Assembly: GCA_048938295.1 (NCBI GenBank)
Contig: JBHLMI010000008.1
Coordinates: 1-32,000, forward strand
DNA: 32,000 nt
Origin: Promethearchaeota archaeon
Lineage (GTDB): Archaea > Asgardarchaeota > Hermodarchaeia > Hermodarchaeales > Hermodarchaeaceae
Reading direction: 5' to 3'
Below, in pieces: positions 2,992-21,407 of this stretch. Numbering within the stretch: the first letter of the stretch is position 1; every line of letters begins with the position of its first letter. The notes beneath the pieces are model-generated. The model had not been told where the DNA came from. It was given only the letters and a program-made list of their open reading frames with translations, and searched no databases. The translations under genes and the position numbers were made by a program.

Positions 2992-3633
2992 ATGCCCATT
3001 GGAAACTGGTACATACCCGAAGGTAAACTGGATGATGCTTTAACCAAGCTAATCCCCGGTGAAGACACCATCATCTACACCTCGCTAGTCTATGTGAAAA
3101 CAGGTGATGAACTGCGTGGGTATGTCACCAAAGTAGGTCAAATCGCTATCACGAACCGGGGAGTGGCCTTCTACGCGAAACGGAAGGGCTTAACCGGTGG
3201 CTTAATTTCCTTCCGAGGAGGCCCTATTGCAGAATATGCTCGTTATGATCATATTTCCCATATCGACAGCCAAGATGACCGCGTCATCATTCATGTTACT
3301 CCAGATATTGATGCCGAGGATCAGGACGAAAAGTGGTTTGAACTCGTCGTCGTTGAAACCGAACCCTATGAAACCAAAAAAGAATTCGAGAAACGCAAAG
3401 GCCAATTCAGCGCTGTCTTAGAACACGCATTGTACCGTTATCGCACAGGACAAGCACGACCTGATTTACCAAAGCAAAAGAAGCCCGCTCAACCCAATGC
3501 TACACGAGTTCGGGCAACACTAAAATCCGCTCGTCGACGTCGAGTGCAGTATTGTCCAAAATGTGGAGCTTTTCTAGAGGAACCAGAAGCTTTCTGTGAA
3601 GTCTGTGGAAAACCCTTACACCCAACGAAATAA
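2992..3633 (+). CDS. PH-like (bPH/GRAM-like) domain protein with C-terminal zinc ribbon
   Basis: N-terminal 'LIPGE.......G.IAITNRGVAF' pattern typical of PH-fold families; C-terminal CPKCG-x8-CEVCG. Confidence 0.55.
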   Translation: MPIGNWYIPEGKLDDALTKLIPGEDTIIYTSLVYVKTGDELRGYVTKVGQIAITNRGVAFYAKRKGLTGGLISFRGGPIAEYARYDHISHIDSQDDRVIIHVTPDIDAEDQDEKWFELVVVETEPYETKKEFEKRKGQFSAVLEHALYRYRTGQARPDLPKQKKPAQPNATRVRATLKSARRRRVQYCPKCGAFLEEPEAFCEVCGKPLHPTK

Positions 3634-3639
3634 TCGTGG

Positions 3640-4182
3640 TTAGAACACGCGTCCGCGGACCCGGTCAATTGCATACAATGCAATGCGCTCAAAGATCGGC
3701 TCAATGTTGACCCCATCTTTAGCACTGGTTTCCAAGAACTCGGCACCAAGTTGGCGCCCCATGCCCATGCCTTCTTGTTCACTCACGAGACGCTCTTTTT
3801 TCAAATCAATTTTATTACCGATTACAATTTTTACTGCCTCACCCGCGTGACGATCAACCTGGCGAGACCACGTCGGTAAGTTGTCAAAGCTTTCCCGGTT
3901 CGTGACATCATAAACTAGGAGGGCTCCAATAGCTCCGACGAAATAGCGTTCAACCAGGTTGCGGAACCGTTCCTGTCCAGCAGTGTCATAGCAGAGCAGA
4001 CCAATTCGACGTCCTTCCACCGTCACAATCTTGCGAAACACATCAGTGCCAATAGTTGCTTTGTACGACGTGGAAAAGGAACCAGTGACGTATCGTCCGA
4101 CGATGCTGGTTTTTCCGACTTCGGAGTCTCCGACGGCGATGACTTTCAGCGAAACATCTGCTTCTTGCTCTTCACCATTCAA
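3640..4182 (-). CDS. Rab-like small GTPase (Ras superfamily)
   Basis: G1 GDSEVGKTS, G2 TIGTD, G3 DTAGQERF, G4 NKID, G5 ETSAK; TTG start. Confidence 0.93.
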   Translation of the reverse strand: MNGEEQEADVSLKVIAVGDSEVGKTSIVGRYVTGSFSTSYKATIGTDVFRKIVTVEGRRIGLLCYDTAGQERFRNLVERYFVGAIGALLVYDVTNRESFDNLPTWSRQVDRHAGEAVKIVIGNKIDLKKERLVSEQEGMGMGRQLGAEFLETSAKDGVNIEPIFERIALYAIDRVRGRVF

Positions 4183-14541: not shown

Positions 14542-17307
14542 CTAACGCTTCGAGTTTAATGAGCTGACAGGAATAATCAGATGCTTTTCCCGGAGTTGAA
14601 AAATCCCATTCAATAATTCAACTGGATTTTCATTCACTGTTTCTATGTATTTGTTCACTATCTCTGAGAGGTAAATATACTCGCGCTGTTTGCTTATCTC
14701 AAGAGCAATGAAATGTAATCTACTTTCCAAATTGGTCAATCGGATATCACCGGTTTTTGTTACAACCTCATGAGGAAAGAGAAGTGAAATGTGAAAGATT
14801 TCTTCAAGGAGCTCATTAGCATTTTGGAATCGTCTTGGCTCATATCCGTGATTCAGCAATTCATTTTGATAGTCAGTTTCGAATCTTTTTGTGAACAATT
14901 CTAGTTTTTGTCGGAGTGTCTCGCTGGGAGTTCCACGATAAACGATGGCGGTTCGGACATGCTGTCCATCATTAATCAATACGCGGAAACCTTCGTACGT
15001 AATTTCAGAGAGCGGAGGATGGTCTTTCGGTCGTTTTTCTTCATTTACGTCAATCGCAAAAGCTTGGATGGCTTGGAGAAAACCGCCAATCAATGAACCA
15101 TCACGGCCTCTCTCTCCCATGGAATCAAAAATGGCTATGCCTGAGCCTCGGTGGAGAACGAGAAATCGCGAGATATTAGTTACATCGTTATAAATGGCCA
15201 AGACCTCTTCTAGCTTTTTCTCGTGGGCTTCTCGTTTGGGAATGACATACCGTTTACGATAGCCTTTGCTATACGCAAGCCATATAGCAATAAGTATAAT
15301 CAAGAACATAATTCCGTAGATTATGAGTGCGAACTCGGGTCGAAGGCCTGTATTTACTATGACACTGAACTGGATCTCTGATCCATCTGCAATAGATGCA
15401 TTTGCATATCCCCACTTTTGGAACTCGAGTCCAAAGGTGATTTCACTATCTGGATCAAAGGATCCTGGTGAGAAAAGGGTCTCATATTCACCTCTAGAAT
15501 TTTGTGTCATCTGAACGATCTGGTTCTGTCCTTGAGGGTTTGAGTAATGTAACTGGACCTGTGCATCAGTAACCGATTCTGCAGAATGAGTATTTTGGAT
15601 ACTGACCCTGATGTAAAACGAACCCCATCCAACGGCGCTATTCGGAGTAGGATATACGATGGTGATTTGGGCTTGGTTCACTATTGTCACTGCTTGTGAT
15701 GCTAAGCCACATTGGGTCCCTGAAGCATAAGACACAAGCATAGTGGTTTCTTCGCCGGCGACTTCTTCACATTGCACAGGAACCTGCCACACCGCACTGG
15801 TAACGCGGTTAGAAAGCGGGTCGAATGTTGGAGTATCATCACGGTGACAAATGGTTCCGTTAGGTAACATTATCGAAATTGACCCCTGATTTCCGGTCAA
15901 TGAGATTGTCTCTAAGACTCCGATAACGCGGATATACTCTTCTACGAGGAGATACTCATTGGAGGTTACATTATCCCACGGGCCAGTTGATGCAACGCTT
16001 TTTTGAAGATACACCTCATTTACGTAATTCGTGCTTCTTGCAGAGATTGTGAACCGATCACCTGATAAGGCAATATTTTCATCCAAAAGAAAGAAGCTGA
16101 ACGACTCATTATATGAATAATCATTCACTGTGAAGCCTGCCGTATCATAAACACGTATCAGCTGCCATCCTTCCGGTAAATAAAGCCCAAATTGATAACT
16201 GGAGATTCCAGGAGGAGGACGTCCGCTAGGAATTGTATAATTTACATTCCATGTAGGGGGTGAATTAACATCGACAGTATAGCCGGATTGGGCTTCATAG
16301 GGGCTCTCACTCTTCATCTTCATCGTGTAATCAAAATCAAATGATATTGAAAATGTGGAGTTGAAAGAAAAGAGTAGGGTTTTATTCCAGGTATTAAGGA
16401 AATCCACTTTTTCTTCTAACACTGGATCAGCAAATATGTCTACTTCACCATTATTGGTAGTTGTGTCTCTAATTGCTGTTCCATTCAGAGTAAGCGCCAC
16501 GTCACTGGGAGCTACATCTGATCCAATTTGGTAGTTGAAGTTGTCAAAAAAGATGTGTCCGTCAACATCGAAGTTATTTATGGTGGTTTTGAAGATATCG
16601 ACACTAAGTATTAATGATCCATTAACAGGGACTGAGGGAACGTTCAGCGTAGTCCAGCTAGTGGGATGAAAATCAAGAGTTGAAGAGATCCAGTTCGTAG
16701 CCGTTGAGCCGAGGTTTGTTTTTATACTTACTTCAATAAATAGCCAACTTGCAGCAGTAATGTCCGGCGAAAATCGTATATCAAAAAATAGTGTGAGGGA
16801 ATCTGGTACTAAAGATGACGTATAGTCAAAGGGATTTTCTATCCACGCGTGTCTTTCTAAAAGCAGTTTGCCATAGGCTAATTCAATATCCAGACAAGAT
16901 CCTGGGTTTCCTCCTGATGTGTTAGCAAGTGAACTAATTAGTCCTCCTCCGCTATCAGCCAGGGTCCAATTAGTACCAGGTTCAGTATATTGTTCGAAAT
17001 CTCCGTTGGGAACAGGATTAATGGTTGTCCGGACATTCTGAATGTCGGTGTGTAAATGATAACCTCGATAAGAGGTTGGATACCACTCAGAAAGATATGA
17101 AAAGGCCGAATCATTGTGGGCATTGAAAAAGTTCGAGCTGTGATTTTGGCCAAATTCATAGACAGTGAGGTTCGTGCCTGCTCCGATTAATTGAGTCGGT
17201 GAAGCAGGAGATGAAATTTGAGCAGAATCAATAGGCGATGTGGGAGTGATGACTAACACACTCACTAGGAGTAGCAAAATGGCTGAAAGGGTTAGTTTTA
17301 GTTTCAA
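14542..17307 (-). CDS. 921-aa single-pass membrane protein: signal peptide, large beta-rich ectodomain (CBM-like start), TM, cytosolic longin-like domain and C-terminal helical/wHTH-like region
   Basis: N-terminal signal peptide; 'PVPNGDFE...W' to 'IFFDNF' jelly-roll-like pattern; TM from about aa 659 followed by basic residues; cytosolic 'FLVLHRGSGIAIF..D.SLIGGFLQAIQAF..EITYEGFRVLI..G......LRQKL..F...FE..Y' longin-like pattern. Confidence 0.7.
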   Translation of the reverse strand: MKLKLTLSAILLLLVSVLVITPTSPIDSAQISSPASPTQLIGAGTNLTVYEFGQNHSSNFFNAHNDSAFSYLSEWYPTSYRGYHLHTDIQNVRTTINPVPNGDFEQYTEPGTNWTLADSGGGLISSLANTSGGNPGSCLDIELAYGKLLLERHAWIENPFDYTSSLVPDSLTLFFDIRFSPDITAASWLFIEVSIKTNLGSTATNWISSTLDFHPTSWTTLNVPSVPVNGSLILSVDIFKTTINNFDVDGHIFFDNFNYQIGSDVAPSDVALTLNGTAIRDTTTNNGEVDIFADPVLEEKVDFLNTWNKTLLFSFNSTFSISFDFDYTMKMKSESPYEAQSGYTVDVNSPPTWNVNYTIPSGRPPPGISSYQFGLYLPEGWQLIRVYDTAGFTVNDYSYNESFSFFLLDENIALSGDRFTISARSTNYVNEVYLQKSVASTGPWDNVTSNEYLLVEEYIRVIGVLETISLTGNQGSISIMLPNGTICHRDDTPTFDPLSNRVTSAVWQVPVQCEEVAGEETTMLVSYASGTQCGLASQAVTIVNQAQITIVYPTPNSAVGWGSFYIRVSIQNTHSAESVTDAQVQLHYSNPQGQNQIVQMTQNSRGEYETLFSPGSFDPDSEITFGLEFQKWGYANASIADGSEIQFSVIVNTGLRPEFALIIYGIMFLIILIAIWLAYSKGYRKRYVIPKREAHEKKLEEVLAIYNDVTNISRFLVLHRGSGIAIFDSMGERGRDGSLIGGFLQAIQAFAIDVNEEKRPKDHPPLSEITYEGFRVLINDGQHVRTAIVYRGTPSETLRQKLELFTKRFETDYQNELLNHGYEPRRFQNANELLEEIFHISLLFPHEVVTKTGDIRLTNLESRLHFIALEISKQREYIYLSEIVNKYIETVNENPVELLNGIFQLREKHLIIPVSSLNSKR

Positions 17308-17497
17308 TGCTCACCCTCGATTTATTGAAAGCCCGCGTCTGTTAGAATTCGATTGCTCCTTTAAATTACTTTGGACTTATTACTCGAATCTGTCTGGTAC
17401 TTAAGAACTTCATAACTGCTTAATTACACTATATGAGGGTGTTGAATTCAAGTGTTTGGATGAATGATTAAATATTATCAATACACTGGTAGACGGG

Positions 17498-17899
17498 GTG
17501 TTAGTCATTTTGAGTGAAGAAGCCTATATTCTCGAGTTCTGTCGCCGGTGGCTCCCTGCCTGGACCGGCAATCAACCTGAATTATTGTTACAGTTTTACA
17601 CAGAAAATGCATTTTACGCAGATCCTGCACATCCTGAGGGAATACAAGGGCAAGACAAGTTAAGAGAGTATTTCACGAAGCTATTGAAATCCAACCCAAA
17701 TTGGGTGTGGGAGCCTGTTGAGGTGTTTCCTACTCGGTATGGTTTCACTCTGAAGTGGCGGGCTTTGATTCCGGTGGGAAAGAAGAAGATAGTTGAGCAT
17801 GGTATGGATATTGTGGAACTCGATGACGGGAAAATCAGCCGCAATGAGGTATATTTCGACCGGAGTCGTTGGCTTGAGGCACTTCCAAAGAAGAAGTAA
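17498..17899 (+). CDS. SnoaL-like / NTF2-fold protein
   Basis: Motifs 'W..AW...........Y.E.A.YADP...GIQG...L..YF' and 'G.D......GKI.RNEVYFD'. Confidence 0.85.
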   Translation: MLVILSEEAYILEFCRRWLPAWTGNQPELLLQFYTENAFYADPAHPEGIQGQDKLREYFTKLLKSNPNWVWEPVEVFPTRYGFTLKWRALIPVGKKKIVEHGMDIVELDDGKISRNEVYFDRSRWLEALPKKK

Positions 17900-18084
17900 G
17901 AGGTGTGCTAGTCTTACAATCTATTTTTTGGTTTTCTCATCTACTCTCATCGAATGTTTTTAGGAAGCAAACATTCTTAACGGTTTTATCAAGCAGTTAG
18001 TTAATTATAGAGGAGTATGGGTTCAGTTACGAATAGGCACTGAATTCCATAATGATTAAAGACACAACAGTGAGGTAATAATTC

Positions 18085-18618
18085 GTGGCGGACATATCCT
18101 CACCAAAACGATGGATATTCAAAGTTATTCTCATGGGTGATTATGCTGTCGGTAAAACTTGCATTATTCGACGGTATGTATCAGACACCTTCATCGAGGA
18201 TTACAAGGCAAGTATTGGTGTGGATATTACATCTCAAGAACTCGACTATAAAGACGATCTTGTGCAATTACAACTTTGGGACATGAGTGGACAAACAGAT
18301 TTCAAACTTGTCCGTAAACAATTCATGAGTGGCACAGACATTGGTATCATTGTCTTTGATTTGACGCGGCCAAGCAGTCTGTTAAACGTGGAAAGATGGA
18401 TTAACGAAATTCATGTGATGCTACCTGAGCTACCTCTTGTGCTGGTGGGTAACAAATCTGATCTCTCCAATGAACGGCAAATTTCCCGAGAAACGGCTGA
18501 GAAGACAGTGAAAAAGTTTGATATGCTTTTTTATTCTGAAACTTCAGCAAAATCTGGGGACAATATTACGCAGCTATTCAAGGATGTGACCAAGCGGTTA
18601 ATGGCGGATATGAAATAG
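18085..18618 (+). CDS. Rab-like small GTPase (second paralogue)
   Basis: G1 GDYAVGKTC, G2 region SIGVDI, G3 LQLWDMSGQ, G4 NKSD, G5 ETSAK. Confidence 0.92.
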   Translation: MADISSPKRWIFKVILMGDYAVGKTCIIRRYVSDTFIEDYKASIGVDITSQELDYKDDLVQLQLWDMSGQTDFKLVRKQFMSGTDIGIIVFDLTRPSSLLNVERWINEIHVMLPELPLVLVGNKSDLSNERQISRETAEKTVKKFDMLFYSETSAKSGDNITQLFKDVTKRLMADMK

Positions 18619-18650
18619 GAAAGGGAATGTAAACAAGGGGGGAATAGGCA

Positions 18651-19568
18651 ATGCCCCAAGGGGCAGCGTTATTAGAATTCGACCAGAAAATGGGACCTAT
18701 CTTCAAAGTTGCTATTCCTAACACACTTGAAGTTACCCAGGATGAAACGATTGTTCTCTTCACCACGCGAACTAAGATGGACGAAGGATTTACCAGTTTG
18801 AAGGTTAAAGACCGAAACTGGGTAACTTATCTGAATCCTCCTTATCTTTACTGTATCTTGCTTACACCCGCTGAACATCAAAACGACTTCGAAATACCCA
18901 TGACAGAAGTACTCAATAATTTCCAACCAAATAATAGGGTTTCCACAGAGGTTCTTAATGAACTGTATGATGATATCGTTTCCCGTATTGGTGATGGTTT
19001 ACGAAGACGTTTATCAGAACAACTAATAGTTCAAAAGCTTCTCGCATTCATTCGGGAATCACAAGAAGCGTTGCGACCTTCCTGGTCAATAAAGACTGGG
19101 TATCATTACCCCAGGGCTGAAAGCATCACCGGTGAATCACCTGAAGATACAAACGCGCTGCTTGGTGTTATGATGACAGCGGGATTACTCTATGGGCGAA
19201 TCTGTGGAAATATTGCAATCTGCCCCCAATGCTCAAATCCTAAAATCGGACTGCACGCAAGTTGTCCGAAATGTGGGTTACCAACTCTTGAAGCAGGCAT
19301 AGCTATTGAGCATTTTACTTGTGAATATACGGCGTTCATCGAGAAGTTTTCGACATCCCAGGGTCTCGTCTGTCCTCAATGTCATGCTTTGTTATCGACT
19401 GGCACTTATCGATCTTTAGGTCGCGTCTACCATTGTGTCACTTGCAAAAGCTATCCTCCTTCTGTAGAGCCTATGTTCGGCTGTCTGACATGTCAATTTA
19501 CTTTTACAGCAAATGAGGCGAAATATTTACCTGTATATTGTTTCACCATAGCTGAAGAGACAGAATAG
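18651..19568 (+). CDS. uDENN/longin-like N-terminal domain fused to a TackOD1-like multi-zinc-finger domain
   Basis: N-terminus 'ALLEFDQKMGPIFKVAIP'; C-terminal 'GYHYP', CPQC, CPKC, EHFTC, CPQC, CVTC and CLTC array. Confidence 0.65.
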   Translation: MPQGAALLEFDQKMGPIFKVAIPNTLEVTQDETIVLFTTRTKMDEGFTSLKVKDRNWVTYLNPPYLYCILLTPAEHQNDFEIPMTEVLNNFQPNNRVSTEVLNELYDDIVSRIGDGLRRRLSEQLIVQKLLAFIRESQEALRPSWSIKTGYHYPRAESITGESPEDTNALLGVMMTAGLLYGRICGNIAICPQCSNPKIGLHASCPKCGLPTLEAGIAIEHFTCEYTAFIEKFSTSQGLVCPQCHALLSTGTYRSLGRVYHCVTCKSYPPSVEPMFGCLTCQFTFTANEAKYLPVYCFTIAEETE

Positions 19569-19645
19569 TAGCGAAATTCTACTTTACTAGTTTTAAATAC
19601 CAGAAGTAAGAAACCGGTACATCTCACTTCACCGAAGACTGTAAG

Positions 19646-20491
19646 GTGTCAGATATGGTTAACTTACTCATCGGGTTCGGTATACCCAACTGGGCTTGGG
19701 ACATCATAGCCCTTGTGATAACATTTCTTGTTATCCTTATCCTGATTCGTGTCAACGACATTCTTAGGAAGCGAGAGATTATACCAATCTATATCTCACG
19801 AAAAGTCATCCATATTTTCGCGGCGCCAATCTTTCTTGTATGCTGGTTGCTCTTCTCTGGAGACTACTATAGCCGCTATTTTGCGATGATGGTTCCTCTC
19901 CTCTTCGTTCTGTTGTTCATTGGCATTGGAACTGGCATGATAAAGAATGAAGAATTCGTCAATACAATGTCTCGTGAAGGGAAACCTAGCGAACTGCTCA
20001 AGGGGACACTGTTCTATGCGGTTATCATGGTGCTTTCAAGTATCTTCTTCTGGTATGTTCCTGTTGATGGCACGTTGCAACCGAGATGGATAGTGTTTAT
20101 CCCAACAGCGGTTCTGATCTTCGGTCCGCTAGCAGGTGGCGATGGCTTTGCTGATTTGATTGGTCGACGGTTTGGAAAATGGAAGTTCCATATTTTTGCT
20201 GAAAAGAGCTTACTCGGTACGCTGTCAATGTTTATATTCAGTCTCCTTGGAACTTTAGGCCTTCTATTCGTTTTCTGGTTAGTCCTTGACCCTATTTGGG
20301 CATCAGTCAATGTAACCGTACTACTCATCCCAATCATCGTAGTATCCCTAGTATGTACAATCATCGAAGTCTTTAGTCCACAGAATATGGATAACCTTTT
20401 GATACCATTGTTTGCAGTGATTACCCTCTTCGTCCTAGCCCTCGTTGGCTTGTATCCATACCCCATTTGGCATACCGGACCCCTACCTTAG
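19646..20491 (+). CDS. CTP-dependent prenol kinase (phytol/farnesol/dolichol kinase family)
   Basis: Polytopic; motifs 'SRKVIHI', 'SREG.P.ELL.G.LFY', 'GGDGFADLIGRRFG', 'KS..G' and 'E......DNL.IP'. Confidence 0.85.
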   Translation: MSDMVNLLIGFGIPNWAWDIIALVITFLVILILIRVNDILRKREIIPIYISRKVIHIFAAPIFLVCWLLFSGDYYSRYFAMMVPLLFVLLFIGIGTGMIKNEEFVNTMSREGKPSELLKGTLFYAVIMVLSSIFFWYVPVDGTLQPRWIVFIPTAVLIFGPLAGGDGFADLIGRRFGKWKFHIFAEKSLLGTLSMFIFSLLGTLGLLFVFWLVLDPIWASVNVTVLLIPIIVVSLVCTIIEVFSPQNMDNLLIPLFAVITLFVLALVGLYPYPIWHTGPLP

Positions 20492-20555
20492 GTCCATTCA
20501 GAAGACCTTTTCAGGTAGGGCGTCCATTAACTACCTGTTCTGCCTTGCGGGTAGG

Positions 20556-21407
20556 ATGCGGGAGTCCAAATACCATCAATTGAGAAAGGAGCTGCAAGAT
20601 TCATTGCCAAGACGTCTTACCATTATCAAACTCGGTGGGTCTCTCATCACTGATAAGAGTAAGCCCTATACTCTGCGAGAGGAGCAGCTGAAACGCATTA
20701 CCCAAGAAATCGCGGAAGTACTCGGTCCCTGTGTCATAGTTCATGGTGTTGGAAGCTTTGGTCATGTCCCAGTGATTGAGAGGAAATTATACGAGGGTTA
20801 TAAGGGCCCTGAACAGCTTCCTGGTTTATCTCAAACCATGGTTGAAGTATTTGAACTCAGGATGGCTGTAACCAAAGCTGTGACGGATGCCGGACTAGCT
20901 CCAATCGTGTTTTTACCGAGTAATATCTTCTTCATGACCGAAGGAGAAATTACAGGTCACTTCAGTGGGGGCCTTCGTCAGTATCTGGATTTGGGTATGA
21001 CCCTACTCATGGGTGGTGATATGTGTGCTGACTCCCAACGTGGTTTTAGCGTTTGCTCCGGGGATAAGGTCGTCCAGCTGCTCTCGCGTCTTCTTGGACC
21101 CCGGGATGTTATCTTCGCTACAGATGTTGCTGGAATTTATACTGCAGATCCTAAACTAGATCCAAAGGCAGAACTCATTCCTCGTATCTCACTCGCCAAA
21201 ATTGAAGAGTATGAAAAGCTTGCCGATGAAGCGGCGACCCCTGATATAACCAAAGGGATGCGGGGGAAGTTGGAAGAAATCAAACGATTTGAATCCATTC
21301 TAAAGAGTGGGGCTGAAGTGGCTATTTTAGGCATGACAGAGCCAGGAATATTACGCCGATATATGAATGGTGATCCGGATGTCCCTTGTACGAGAATCAC
21401 CCTCTAA
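20556..21407 (+). CDS. ipk: isopentenyl phosphate kinase (amino-acid kinase fold)
   Basis: Motifs 'IIKLGGSLITDK', 'IVHGVGSFGH' (IPK-type His), 'SGD', 'TDV.GIY..DP' and 'DIT.GM.GK'. Start placed at ATG 20556. Confidence 0.85.
   Translation: MRESKYHQLRKELQDSLPRRLTIIKLGGSLITDKSKPYTLREEQLKRITQEIAEVLGPCVIVHGVGSFGHVPVIERKLYEGYKGPEQLPGLSQTMVEVFELRMAVTKAVTDAGLAPIVFLPSNIFFMTEGEITGHFSGGLRQYLDLGMTLLMGGDMCADSQRGFSVCSGDKVVQLLSRLLGPRDVIFATDVAGIYTADPKLDPKAELIPRISLAKIEEYEKLADEAATPDITKGMRGKLEEIKRFESILKSGAEVAILGMTEPGILRRYMNGDPDVPCTRITL

What the first reader, a model, noticed from the sequence alone, without database searches (positions are those of the whole stretch)
14542..19568. Candidate receptor / Rab-like GTPase / longin-Zn-finger signalling module
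Seen: a membrane protein with a cytosolic longin-like domain is divergent from a SnoaL gene and a Rab-like GTPase, and the GTPase is followed 32 bp later by a second longin-like protein with a Zn-finger output domain. Established: in eukaryotes, longin/DENN proteins act as GEFs or GAPs for Rab and Rag GTPases, often as longin heterodimers (Mon1-Ccz1, NPRL2-NPRL3, FLCN-FNIP). Inference: the two longin domains may heterodimerise and couple an extracellular cue to the GTPase and a TackOD1-type output, making a compact prokaryotic GTPase signalling circuit.
Basis: partly seen in the sequence, partly recalled or inferred. Interest (0 to 1): 0.8.

Follow-up and report, generated by a model that had tools for sequence, protein, structure and literature searches.

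The report
Rab-like GTPase with longin–zinc-ribbon partner
In a Hermodarchaeial (Asgard) genome, a Rab-like GTPase gene sits 32 bp upstream of a gene whose product joins a eukaryote-type "GAP-class" longin domain to an archaeal DNA-binding-like zinc-ribbon output; relatives of that partner keep turning up beside small GTPases, which gives a testable GTPase–regulator pair, but the nearby membrane "receptor" looks like a neighbour and not part of the machine.

Summary
All four genes are at the stated coordinates. They are a 921-aa type-I membrane protein, a SnoaL gene, a Rab-like GTPase and, 32 bp downstream, a 305-aa protein.

Predicted structures support both longin calls:
- The 305-aa protein is longin (aa 1-122; Z 9.9 to Nprl2), then winged helix, then TackOD1 zinc ribbons.
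- The membrane protein has a cytosolic longin (Z 13.0 to Sec22b).

The partner's longin carries an invariant [F/W]D-x3-GP motif. This is the GP signature (with C9orf72's WD spacing) that a 2025 paper reports only in GAP-type longins (FLCN, NPRL2, SMCR8, C9orf72).

The GTPase–partner link is more than chance:
- All 3 family members in this genome touch a GTPase gene.
- A 24%-identical paralogue does so in 16 of 16 assessable loci of the class.
- Across 40 distant Asgard loci, GTPase genes are about 30-90 times denser within 300 bp than at 3-10 kb.
- The link is not universal: about half of the orthologues have moved away.

The membrane protein is not supported as part of the unit. It is absent from or moved out of the locus in relatives that keep the pair, and it is never directly adjacent to the GTPase.

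This scan had already noted Rab–TackOD1 pairs in Odin- and Hel-type genomes. Verdict: a real two-gene module and a new variant of a known kind. The three-part receptor circuit remains speculative.

The parts
18085..18618 (+). Rab-like small GTPase, 177 aa. G1 GDYAVGKT (aa 18-25), switch-I Ser43 in place of Thr, G3 DMSGQ (aa 66-70, catalytic Gln70), G4 NKSD (aa 123-126), G5 SAK (aa 154-156). No C-terminal Cys.
   Evidence: Pfam Ras 9.5e-47. The 60 best PDB sequence matches shown are all Rab/Ypt-type: Rab6 2e-35, Thorarchaeota Rab 2.3e-31. Motifs read.
18619..18650 (.). 32-bp intergenic spacer with a G-rich, ribosome-binding-like run. A T-rich stretch follows the SnoaL stop upstream, so the GTPase and its partner are probably a separate two-gene transcript.
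   Evidence: Sequence. This is an inference; no RNA data.
18651..19025 (+). N-terminal longin domain (aa 1-125) of the 305-aa partner, with F10-D11-x3-G15-P16 at the beta1-beta2 turn.
   Evidence: Model topology. Z 9.9 Nprl2, 9.7 VAMP7, 8.9 Lst4, 8.6 FLCN. ESM Atlas TM 0.73-0.76 to eukaryotic NPRL2 clusters. Motif conservation.
19026..19568 (+). TackOD1 region (aa 126-305): a winged-helix-like segment (aa ~126-180), then five CxxC pairs plus a conserved H221-x2-C224.
   Evidence: Pfam PF18551, 81.8 bits against a cut-off of 32. Winged-helix matches CadC Z 9.9 and SrnR 9.7. Cys/His columns invariant in 17 homologues. CxxC positions 191, 205, 241, 262, 278.
14542..17307 (-). Type-I membrane protein, 921 aa: Ig/beta-sandwich-like glycosylated ectodomain, one TM (nt ~15262-15333), and a cytosolic longin plus helical, winged-helix-like tail (nt 14542-15240). 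A neighbour; membership in the module is doubtful.
   Evidence: topology; longin, Z 13.0 to Sec22b; weak ectodomain leads; synteny tests.
17498..17899 (+). SnoaL/NTF2-like gene between the membrane protein and the GTPase. Part of the genus-level synteny backbone, not of the module.
   Evidence: Pfam SnoaL_2 8.2e-13. Synteny.

Best explanation
The functional unit is two genes, not three or four: a soluble Rab-like GTPase (18085-18618) and, probably co-transcribed 32 bp downstream, a 305-aa partner (18651-19568).

The partner's N-terminal longin domain belongs to the GP-motif class that in eukaryotes marks the GTPase-activating longins (NPRL2, FLCN, SMCR8, C9orf72). I infer that this domain docks the GTPase.

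The rest of the partner is a winged helix plus a cluster of zinc ribbons (TackOD1). This domain is otherwise known as the output end of archaeal response regulators. In this protein the longin stands where the phospho-receiver usually stands.

The most likely working is therefore as follows. The nucleotide state of the GTPase is read by the longin domain. That changes what the winged-helix/zinc-ribbon output does, most plausibly binding to DNA or another nucleic acid. The longin may in return speed GTP hydrolysis.

Shown here: the domain folds (as predictions), the motifs, and the recurrent gene pairing. Inferred: physical binding, GAP activity and DNA binding.

The 921-aa membrane protein has a real cytosolic longin domain but is best read as a neighbour kept by shared ancestry.
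For: 1. Pairing in orthologues. The GTPase lies directly upstream on the same strand (gaps of 10 to about 107 bp) in the window, G010, G013, L009 and L006/L007. L006/L007 is only 46% identical and sits in a different context, after three KaiC-like ATPases. The L006 GTPase is closer to this GTPase (51%) than to its nearest in-genome paralogue (46%), so the pair travelled together.

2. Pairing in a paralogue. A full-length paralogue (~24% identity, ~300 aa) lies tail-to-tail, about 3-15 bp from a different Rab-like GTPase, in 16 of 16 assessable loci across both genera of the class.

3. Third member in this genome. The C38 gene (580 aa) lies 26 bp downstream of a longin-Arf/Rag-like GTPase fusion.

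4. Remote relatives. L089 is followed after 6 bp by a GTPase carrying an N-terminal extension. L103 has a GTPase in the divergent operon and a receiver gene 5 bp downstream.

5. Phylum-level control. In 40 distant loci, GTPase ORF density is 3.75 per 10 kb within 300 bp, against 0.14 and 0.04 per 10 kb at 3-6 and 6-10 kb of the same loci. Nine of 40 are directly adjacent, from at least five families.

6. GAP-class signature. D11 and G15 are invariant in all 44 phylum relatives. W or F is at position 10 in 44/44, and P16 in 24/44. The spacing equals C9orf72's W33-D34...G38-P39. PMC12290439 reports the GP motif only in GAP longins and in a class of Asgard longins.

7. Output logic. TackOD1 occurs as REC-TackOD1 and REC-wHTH-TackOD1 (PMC5847659). 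This genome's C41 TackOD1 protein also carries an AsnC-type HTH. Remote relatives of the longin family carry weak wHTH matches instead of TackOD1.

8. The GTPase has complete G1-G5 motifs with Gln70, so it looks like a working switch.
Against: - The pairing is not universal. Eight orthologue loci have no GTPase in the sequenced flanks (L008, L010, L011, L012, G009, G014, G004 and one JGI contig).
- Five congeners keep the orthologous GTPase at the syntenic site without the partner (G003, G012, G009, G014, G004). G003 and G012 lack the orthologue altogether at 86-88% completeness.
- 31 of the 40 distant longin loci have no directly adjacent GTPase.
- The longin assignment rests on predicted models of moderate confidence (aa 1-30 have pLDDT about 50-57). 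Z values of 8-10 are, by the tool's own note, only somewhat above what unrelated models reach. There is no sequence-level match to any solved longin or to a Pfam longin, NPR2 or folliculin family.
- No conserved arginine finger could be placed. R55 is invariant only within Hermodarchaeia (8/44 elsewhere) and lies in the beta3-beta4 turn.
- Nothing here shows binding, GAP activity, DNA binding or co-transcription.
- TackOD1 has no tested function.
Confidence: 0.55

Rival explanations
1. The membrane protein senses an outside cue. Its cytosolic longin heterodimerises with the partner's longin, as in NPRL2-NPRL3 or FLCN-FNIP, and the dimer controls the GTPase and the TackOD1 output.
For: - Both longin folds are supported.
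- One is GP-type and the other is not ('GSG' at the equivalent turn). That mirrors the catalytic/non-catalytic pairing in NPRL2-NPRL3 and FLCN-FNIP2 described in PMC12290439.
- The membrane gene lies in the same neighbourhood as the GTPase in 7 congeners.
- In one other family (f20), a different subfamily of the membrane protein sits 1.5-2.8 kb from an Arf-like GTPase operon in many genera. Density is 1.25 per 10 kb at 1-3 kb against 0.25 further out.
Against: - It is never directly adjacent to the GTPase. It is on the opposite strand, with SnoaL between and usually about 3 kb more (FGGY kinase and saccharopine dehydrogenase in L009).
- The pair persists without it at the locus in L009 and G013. 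In G013 it lies elsewhere, split into three ORFs.
- G008 keeps the membrane gene but has lost the GTPase and the partner.
- Its three in-genome paralogues have no GTPase on their contigs.
- Loci from five other families (f7, f15, f16, f21, f26) show no GTPase within about 8 kb. Only 1 of 38 loci has one within 300 bp, and no partner-type longin gene lies near any of them.
- The f20 signal comes from one family and is interrupted by an rRNA methyltransferase gene in some members.
Confidence: 0.12
2. The partner is purely a regulator (GAP or GEF) of the GTPase. TackOD1 serves as a scaffold, localisation or metal/redox-sensing module, not as a DNA-binding output. The true effector of the GTPase is elsewhere.
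For: - The GP/WD-type motif is the signature of GAP longins.
- Longin and roadblock platforms are typically GEFs or GAPs (PMC10933270).
- The function of TackOD1 is called obscure by its describers.
Against: - TackOD1 is known as an output domain behind receiver domains, and includes or is fused to winged-helix modules.
- No conserved arginine finger was found.
- The GTPase keeps its own catalytic Gln.
Confidence: 0.2
3. The adjacency has no functional meaning. The longin-TackOD1 protein works with KaiC-like ATPases or two-component systems, as TackOD1 proteins usually do, and GTPase genes are simply abundant in Asgard genomes.
For: - L006/L007 and L086/L087 place family members beside KaiC-like ATPases. 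L103 has a receiver gene 5 bp downstream.
- Half of the orthologues are not next to a GTPase.
- Tran et al. report that MK-D1 GTPases are generally not in operons with longin genes.
Against: - There is a 30-90-fold local enrichment against the distal flanks of the same loci.
- 3 of 3 members in this genome are adjacent to a GTPase. I estimate about 3% odds for each by chance.
- 16 of 16 paralogue loci are adjacent.
- The pair is co-inherited across 46-51% identity.
Confidence: 0.12

Closest known systems
Eukaryotic longin-domain GAP complexes: GATOR1 (NPRL2-NPRL3), FLCN-FNIP2, C9orf72-SMCR8 (PMC12290439)
   Same: Longin fold, with Nprl2 as the top structural match (tied within 1 Z with other longins). 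A GP motif at the start of beta2, preceded by an aromatic-Asp pair with the same spacing as C9orf72's WD...GP. Genetic association with a small GTPase.
   Different: A single longin with no DENN or NPRL2-type C-terminal domain. It is fused instead to a winged helix plus zinc ribbons. The neighbouring GTPase is Rab-like, not Rag or Arf. No arginine finger or heterodimer partner was identified. No sequence-level family match.
Asgard NPRL2-like longin domains fused to two-component-system domains (Liu et al., bioRxiv 10.1101/2020.10.19.343400)
   Same: The same general idea: an NPRL2-like longin joined to prokaryotic signalling domains in Asgard archaea. This protein very likely belongs to that loosely described set.
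   Different: That text does not name TackOD1, and in the passages I read it does not report a conserved pairing with a Rab-like GTPase. The operon it describes is LAMTOR1-like / Rab-like GTPase / DENN.
REC-TackOD1 and REC-wHTH-TackOD1 response regulators (Galperin et al. 2018, PMC5847659)
   Same: The same output domain (PF18551), with five CxxC pairs and an HxxC site.
   Different: The input is a longin domain, not a phospho-receiver. This implies control by a GTPase and not by a histidine kinase.
MglA-MglB of Myxococcus (bacterial Ras-like GTPase with a roadblock GAP)
   Same: A prokaryotic small GTPase encoded next to a longin/roadblock-superfamily regulator.
   Different: Here the fold has longin topology (no N-terminal helix, two C-terminal helices) with a fused output domain. 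The GTPase is Rab-like with an intrinsic Gln.
Asgard longin-GTPase and GTPase-roadblock fusion proteins (Tran et al. 2024, PMC10933270)
   Same: They show that longin and small-GTPase modules work together in Asgard archaea. One such fusion (a Clat_adaptor_s-type longin match plus an Arf/Rag-like GTPase domain) is the neighbour of the third family member in this genome (C38).
   Different: Here the two modules are separate genes. That paper states that MK-D1 GTPases are generally not in operons with longin genes, so this family is an exception.

Membership tests
Ras superfamily, Rab-like small GTPase (18085-18618) | G1-G5 nucleotide-binding motifs with a catalytic Gln in switch II | tested here: met
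   GDYAVGKT, DMSGQ, NKSD and SAK are present and conserved in 13 aligned homologues. Switch-I Thr is replaced by Ser43. Pfam Ras 159 bits against a cut-off of 21.6.
Ras superfamily, Rab-like small GTPase (18085-18618) | Closest to Rab, not to Ras, Rho or Arf | tested here: met
   The 60 best PDB sequence matches shown are all Rab/Ypt-type: Rab6 2e-35, Rab43, Thorarchaeota Rab 2.3e-31. No phylogeny was built.
Eukaryotic Rab proper | C-terminal Cys prenylation motif for membrane anchoring | tested here: not met
   The protein ends ...RLMADMK and its only Cys is at position 26. It is therefore 'Rab-like', not a Rab.
Longin domain (partner aa 1-122) | beta-beta-alpha-beta-beta-beta-alpha-alpha topology and structural match to solved longins | tested here: met
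   Model topology. Z 9.9 Nprl2, 9.7 VAMP7, 8.9 Lst4, 8.8 Sec22b, over 107-113 aligned residues at 2.8-3.8 A. Caveats: predicted model, low confidence in aa 1-30, middling Z.
Longin domain (partner aa 1-122) | Sequence-profile membership in a curated longin, NPR2 or folliculin family | tested here: not met
   No Pfam match at E<=1 for the N-terminus. No PDB sequence match at E<0.8. Only a lead: an Asgard ESM cluster in which 19% of members carry PF06218 NPR2, score 0.80.
GAP-class longins (FLCN, NPRL2, SMCR8, C9orf72 and a class of Asgard longins; PMC12290439) | GP motif at the end of the beta1-beta2 loop or the start of beta2 | tested here: met
   G15-P16 begins beta2 (strands 5-11 and 15-21). 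Invariant in the 9 orthologues and 9 paralogues of alignment A3. G in 44/44 and P in 24/44 (A in 11) phylum relatives.
GAP-class longins (FLCN, NPRL2, SMCR8, C9orf72 and a class of Asgard longins; PMC12290439) | Aromatic-Asp (WD) pair four residues before the Gly, as in C9orf72 W33-D34...G38-P39 | tested here: met
   F10-D11-x3-G15 here. Among the 44 relatives, W10 in 42, F10 in 2, and D11 in all 44. The C9orf72 numbering is taken from the paper.
GAP-class longins (FLCN, NPRL2, SMCR8, C9orf72 and a class of Asgard longins; PMC12290439) | Catalytic arginine finger next to the GP motif | tested here: inconclusive
   R55 is invariant in the aligned Hermodarchaeial orthologues and paralogues but is R in only 8/44 elsewhere. 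It lies in the beta3-beta4 turn. I could not read model coordinates to measure its distance to the GP motif.
GAP-class longins (FLCN, NPRL2, SMCR8, C9orf72 and a class of Asgard longins; PMC12290439) | GTPase-activating activity as a longin heterodimer | not testable with these tools
   Needs biochemistry.
TackOD1 (PF18551) | Profile match above the curated cut-off; five CxxC pairs plus an HxxC | tested here: met
   81.8 bits against 32. CxxC at 191, 205, 241, 262, 278 and H221-x2-C224, all invariant in 17 homologues.
TackOD1 response regulators | N-terminal REC receiver domain | tested here: not met
   No Response_reg match. The N-terminus is a longin fold.
Longin domain (membrane protein aa ~710-843) | Structural match to solved longins | tested here: met
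   Sec22b Z 13.0 (127 aa, 3.2 A), synbindin 12.1, VAMP7 11.6, Fuzzy 11.0. Foldseek probability 1.00, E down to 3.7e-4.
DENN / tri-longin RabGEFs (DENND1, Mon1-Ccz1, Fuzzy-Inturned) | Longin followed by DENN/dDENN modules, or three longin domains in tandem | tested here: not met
   In both proteins one longin is followed by a winged-helix-type region, not by DENN or further longins. No DENN Pfam match.
MglB / roadblock-LC7 | alpha-beta-beta-alpha-beta-beta-beta topology with an N-terminal helix | tested here: not met
   The partner starts with a strand and ends with two helices. The membrane protein's tail has a post-TM helix before strand 1, but its best matches are longins, with roadblock lower (Asgard Roadblock3 Z 9.7 against Sec22b 13.0).

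The most novel reading that the evidence does not exclude
The [W/F]D-x3-GP longin proteins fused to winged-helix/zinc-ribbon outputs are the cognate GAP-effectors of Asgard small GTPases. They turn GTPase state directly into a DNA-binding response. They would represent the prokaryotic stage from which the eukaryotic longin GAPs (GATOR1, folliculin, C9orf72-SMCR8) descend. In that reading a eukaryote-type GTPase switch originally fed a prokaryote-style transcriptional output, not membrane traffic.
Probability: 0.22. Interest if true: 0.8.

Novelty: new variant of a known kind. Interest (0 to 1): 0.5.

Why it matters
Two recent papers state the open problem directly. Tran et al. 2024 say Asgard GTPases cannot be matched to their regulators from genome layout. 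The 2025 survey of longin GAPs asks which GTPases partner the GP-motif Asgard longins.

This family gives a concrete answer to test. It offers a named Rab-like GTPase and a named GP-longin protein, encoded side by side, small and soluble, with a paralogous pair in the same genome as a built-in specificity control.

It also suggests what such a switch controls in an organism without observed endomembranes. The output is a winged-helix/zinc-ribbon domain that is otherwise driven by two-component phosphorylation.

The limit on interest is prior description. Fusions of NPRL2-like longins to signalling domains were already noted in general terms, and the same pairing has been noted elsewhere in this scan.

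Tried and rejected
- Complex prediction: two copies of the partner's longin (aa 1-125) plus the GTPase gave no verdict. Score 0.31 against a mark of 0.32; one control scored 0.25. It counts neither for nor against binding.
- RNA evidence: no RNA holder was listed for 17900-19700. One sediment run held a tenth of the sampled words and is probably DNA. I did not lay reads, so there is nothing on co-transcription.
- Profile-profile comparison of the two longin families: no relation (probability 0.5%). The idea that the membrane tail and the partner are duplicates is dropped.
- The 466-aa proteins that replace the GTPase as neighbour in some orthologue loci are unrelated to the 466-aa ORF beside the membrane paralogue on C6, which has no BLAST match to them. 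The apparent link was a coincidence of length.
- The 564-aa surface protein divergent from the L086 family member has no cytosolic longin (no hmmsearch match; short tail after the TM). It therefore does not repeat the membrane-protein arrangement.
- The gene downstream of the partner (19646-20491) was considered as a third component, because it stays beside the GTPase when the partner is absent. It is a multi-pass membrane protein with a GDGFADLIGRRFG motif, next to an amino-acid-kinase-family gene. That points to lipid or isoprenoid metabolism, so it was set aside.
- The genome-contig scan with the membrane tail returned only Hermodarchaeial records already covered.
- I could not map the NPRL2 or FLCN arginine finger onto the model, because neither residue-level structural alignments nor model coordinates are available in the sandbox.
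- The winged-helix reading of the membrane protein's last ~60 aa rests on secondary structure only. No fold match covers it.

Full report
**What is there**

The window is contig C50 of a 2.52-Mb, 91.6%-complete genome. Close homologues come from MAGs labelled Hermodarchaeota, Hermodarchaeia or Promethearchaeota, so this is an Asgard archaeon.

The finding covers four genes:
- 14542-17307 (-): a 921-aa protein with only a sub-threshold Pfam match (CBM_56, E 0.042).
- 17498-17899 (+): a SnoaL_2 gene (8.2e-13).
- 18085-18618 (+): a Ras-family GTPase (9.5e-47).
- 18651-19568 (+): a 305-aa protein, exactly 32 bp downstream, whose residues 126-299 match TackOD1 (6.1e-23).

A T-rich run follows the SnoaL stop, and a G-rich run precedes the last start codon. 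I therefore read the GTPase and the 305-aa gene as a separate two-gene transcript. That is an inference with no RNA support.

**The GTPase**

- It has complete G1-G5 motifs: GDYAVGKT, DMSGQ with Gln70, NKSD and SAK. Ser43 stands in place of the usual switch-I Thr.
- Its 60 best PDB sequence matches shown are all Rab/Ypt-type: Rab6 2e-35, Thorarchaeota Rab 2.3e-31.
- It has no C-terminal cysteine. It is Rab-like and presumably soluble, not a prenylated Rab.

**The 305-aa partner**

An AlphaFold2 model built on 17 homologues (pLDDT 78.6; the first 30 residues are weak) shows three parts:
- a beta-beta-alpha-beta-beta-beta-alpha-alpha domain at residues 1-122;
- a helical, winged-helix-like segment;
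- a beta-rich zinc-ribbon region.

Foldseek's weak matches are almost all longin proteins. The second-look aligner gives Nprl2 Z 9.9 (111 aa, 2.8 A), VAMP7 9.7, Lst4 8.9, FLCN 8.6 and SMCR8/C9orf72 8.2. It also gives ArsR/SmtB winged helices (CadC Z 9.9) for residues ~114-180. The ESM Atlas's own model matches eukaryotic NPRL2 clusters at TM 0.73-0.76. These Z values are moderate. There is no sequence-level match to any solved longin or to a Pfam longin family. The fold call is therefore reasonable but rests on prediction.

The TackOD1 part has the five CxxC pairs and an HxxC site that its describers list (PMC5847659). All are invariant in the family.

**A GAP-class signature**

PMC12290439 reports a GP motif at the start of beta2. 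It is found in FLCN, NPRL2, SMCR8 and C9orf72. It is absent from non-GAP longins such as FNIP2, NPRL3, adaptins, TRAPP subunits and DENND proteins. It is also present in a class of Asgard longins, and the authors ask which GTPases partner those longins.

Here G15-P16 opens beta2 and is invariant in the aligned orthologues and paralogues. Four residues earlier sits F10-D11. Among 44 phylum-level relatives, W occupies position 10 in 42 and F in 2. D11 and G15 are present in all 44. Position 16 is P in 24 and A in 11. This [W/F]D-x3-GP pattern has the same spacing as C9orf72's essential W33-D34 and G38-P39, as quoted in that paper.

An arginine finger could not be placed. R55 is invariant only within Hermodarchaeia.

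**Is the GTPase pairing real?**

Several independent lines say yes, with limits.

- Orthologues. The GTPase is directly upstream on the same strand in the window, G010, G013, L009 and L006/L007. L006/L007 is only 46% identical and sits in a different context, after three KaiC-like ATPases. The L006 GTPase is nearer to this GTPase (51%) than to its closest in-genome paralogue (46%).
- Paralogue. A full-length paralogue (~24% identity) lies tail-to-tail with a different Rab-like GTPase in 16 of 16 assessable loci covering both genera of the class.
- This genome. The third, weaker family member (C38) lies 26 bp downstream of a longin-Arf/Rag-like GTPase fusion. That makes 3 of 3, against an estimated 3% odds each given 33 Ras-family genes.
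- Remote relatives. Found by an exhaustive profile search (23 representatives), these are fused to TackOD1 or carry weak winged-helix matches. L089 is followed after 6 bp by a GTPase carrying an N-terminal extension. L103 has a GTPase in the divergent operon.
- Phylum. The longin family occurs in 174 of 400 genomes. In 40 sampled distant loci, GTPase ORFs are 3.75 per 10 kb within 300 bp, against 0.14 and 0.04 per 10 kb at 3-6 and 6-10 kb of the same loci. Nine loci are directly adjacent, from at least five families.

The limits:
- Eight orthologue loci have no GTPase nearby.
- Five congeners keep the GTPase at the syntenic site without the partner.
- G003 and G012 lack the orthologous partner altogether.
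- Most distant family members are not adjacent to a GTPase.
- Related genomes are not independent samples.

**The membrane protein**

It has a leader, 14 glycosylation sequons, one TM and a basic stretch just after the TM. Its ectodomain gives only weak Ig/beta-sandwich leads. Its cytosolic tail is well conserved, at 49-94% identity over 24 homologues.

The tail model (pLDDT 77.8) has a clear longin domain at residues ~710-843: Sec22b Z 13.0 and synbindin 12.1, with Foldseek probability 1.00. This is followed by helices in a winged-helix-like pattern that no fold search covered. Its longin is not GP-type and shows no sequence relation to the partner's.

Linkage to the GTPase is weak:
- The genus shares a backbone of OYE, MFS, [membrane protein], SnoaL, [about 3 kb; FGGY kinase and saccharopine dehydrogenase in L009], GTPase, [partner], a membrane protein, and an amino-acid-kinase-family gene.
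- The window is unusual in lacking the 3-kb insert. That deletion is what brings the genes close together here.
- The membrane gene is absent from this site in L009 and G013, which keep the pair. In G013 it lies on another contig, split into three ORFs.
- G008 keeps it but has lost both the GTPase and the partner.
- Its three paralogues in this genome have no GTPase on their contigs.
- The tail family is very widespread, in 258 of 400 genomes with several copies each. Of 38 distant loci, only one has a GTPase within 300 bp.
- There is a fivefold excess at 1-3 kb. It comes from one family (f20), where a different subfamily lies convergent to an Arf-like GTPase operon, sometimes with an rRNA methyltransferase gene between. 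By my rough count, two lineages out of about eleven with a GTPase within 3 kb is not clearly above expectation.

**How it most likely works**

TackOD1 is known behind receiver domains. In this protein the longin stands in the receiver's place. I therefore read the partner as a GTPase-controlled output protein:
- the longin docks the Rab-like GTPase;
- the nucleotide state governs the winged-helix/zinc-ribbon domain, most plausibly nucleic-acid binding;
- the GAP-class motif suggests the longin may also stimulate hydrolysis.

Binding, catalysis and DNA binding are all inferred.

Links to KaiC-like ATPases and two-component genes appear in L006/L007, L086 and L103. This GTPase's nearest paralogue also sits in a locus that another report of this scan describes as a KaiC-type signalling locus. 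Together these suggest the switch plugs into prokaryotic signalling networks.

**Novelty**

- The GP-motif Asgard longins are described.
- The library's only paper naming TackOD1 is the original description.
- Tran et al. state that MK-D1 GTPases are generally not in operons with longin genes.
- I found no paper reporting a conserved Rab-like GTPase / longin-TackOD1 pair.
- Other follow-ups in this scan report the same pairing in Odin- and Hel-type genomes, and reach the same "neighbours, not one machine" view of a membrane longin protein. Those are unchecked notes. My phylum-level test agrees with them.

I class the finding as a new variant of a known kind, of moderate interest. The two-gene module stands. 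The receptor-coupled three-part circuit does not.

Noticed in passing
window 2992-4182: A second Rab-like GTPase (3640-4182, minus strand; Pfam Ras 1.7e-51) lies tail-to-tail, 6 bp from a 213-aa protein (2992-3633) that ends in a zinc ribbon. This is another GTPase / zinc-ribbon pairing in the same window. The partner's N-terminus does not match the longin family profile.
   Followed up: partly
G000:C22:19610-21048 (L033 1495-2960): A paralogous longin-TackOD1-like gene (299 aa, four CxxC pairs) is convergent with another Rab-like GTPase, 14 bp apart. The arrangement is conserved in every assessable genome of the class. It is a more stable pairing than the one in the window.
   Followed up: yes
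G000:C38:87843-90583 (L105 2843-5583): A 323-aa protein (a Clat_adaptor_s-type longin match plus an Arf/Rag-like GTPase domain) is followed after 26 bp by a 580-aa protein with no Pfam match. The N-terminus of the 580-aa protein weakly matches the partner's longin profile (E 5.6e-5).
   Followed up: partly
window 19646-21407: A multi-pass membrane protein with a GDGFADLIGRRFG motif (no Pfam match) is followed by an amino-acid-kinase-family gene. This looks like a prenol/isoprenoid phosphate kinase pair. The membrane protein gene stays beside the GTPase in congeners that lack the longin partner.
   Followed up: no
between SnoaL and the GTPase; L009 3256-6146, and the same position in L073, L074, L077, L079-L081, L084: Most congeners carry about 3 kb here (FGGY sugar kinase plus saccharopine dehydrogenase in L009) that the window lacks. 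This presence/absence difference is what brings the membrane gene close to the GTPase in this genome.
   Followed up: partly
L008 1490-2890, L010 5056-6456, L012 4665-6065; own genome C41:82707-84104 and three copies on C4: A multi-copy family of ~466-aa proteins with faint winged-helix matches is divergently paired with the longin-TackOD1 orthologue in exactly those genomes where it is not next to the GTPase. In this genome a copy lies about 5 kb from another TackOD1 protein (C41).
   Followed up: partly
phylum-wide; e.g. L194 8268-11654, L185 8276-11617: The membrane-anchored longin-tail family is one of the more widespread Asgard families seen here (258 of 400 genomes, proteins of 700-2200 aa, several copies per genome). 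In one large family a subfamily lies 1.5-2.8 kb from a three-gene operon (241 aa, Arf-like GTPase, 186 aa).
   Followed up: partly
L097 8208-10717 (= G013:C18): The membrane protein's orthologue in G013 is split into three overlapping ORFs (95, 421 and 356 aa), either a pseudogene or an assembly error. Upstream is a different operon: a 274-aa longin-looking protein overlapping a Ras-family GTPase by 4 bp.
   Followed up: no
G000:C41:88772-89995 (L001 1342-2565): A 407-aa protein joins TackOD1 (aa 54-229) to an AsnC-type helix-turn-helix (aa 261-308) and is followed by a HEAT-repeat protein. This direct fusion of TackOD1 to a classical DNA-binding domain supports a transcription-related role.
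   Followed up: no
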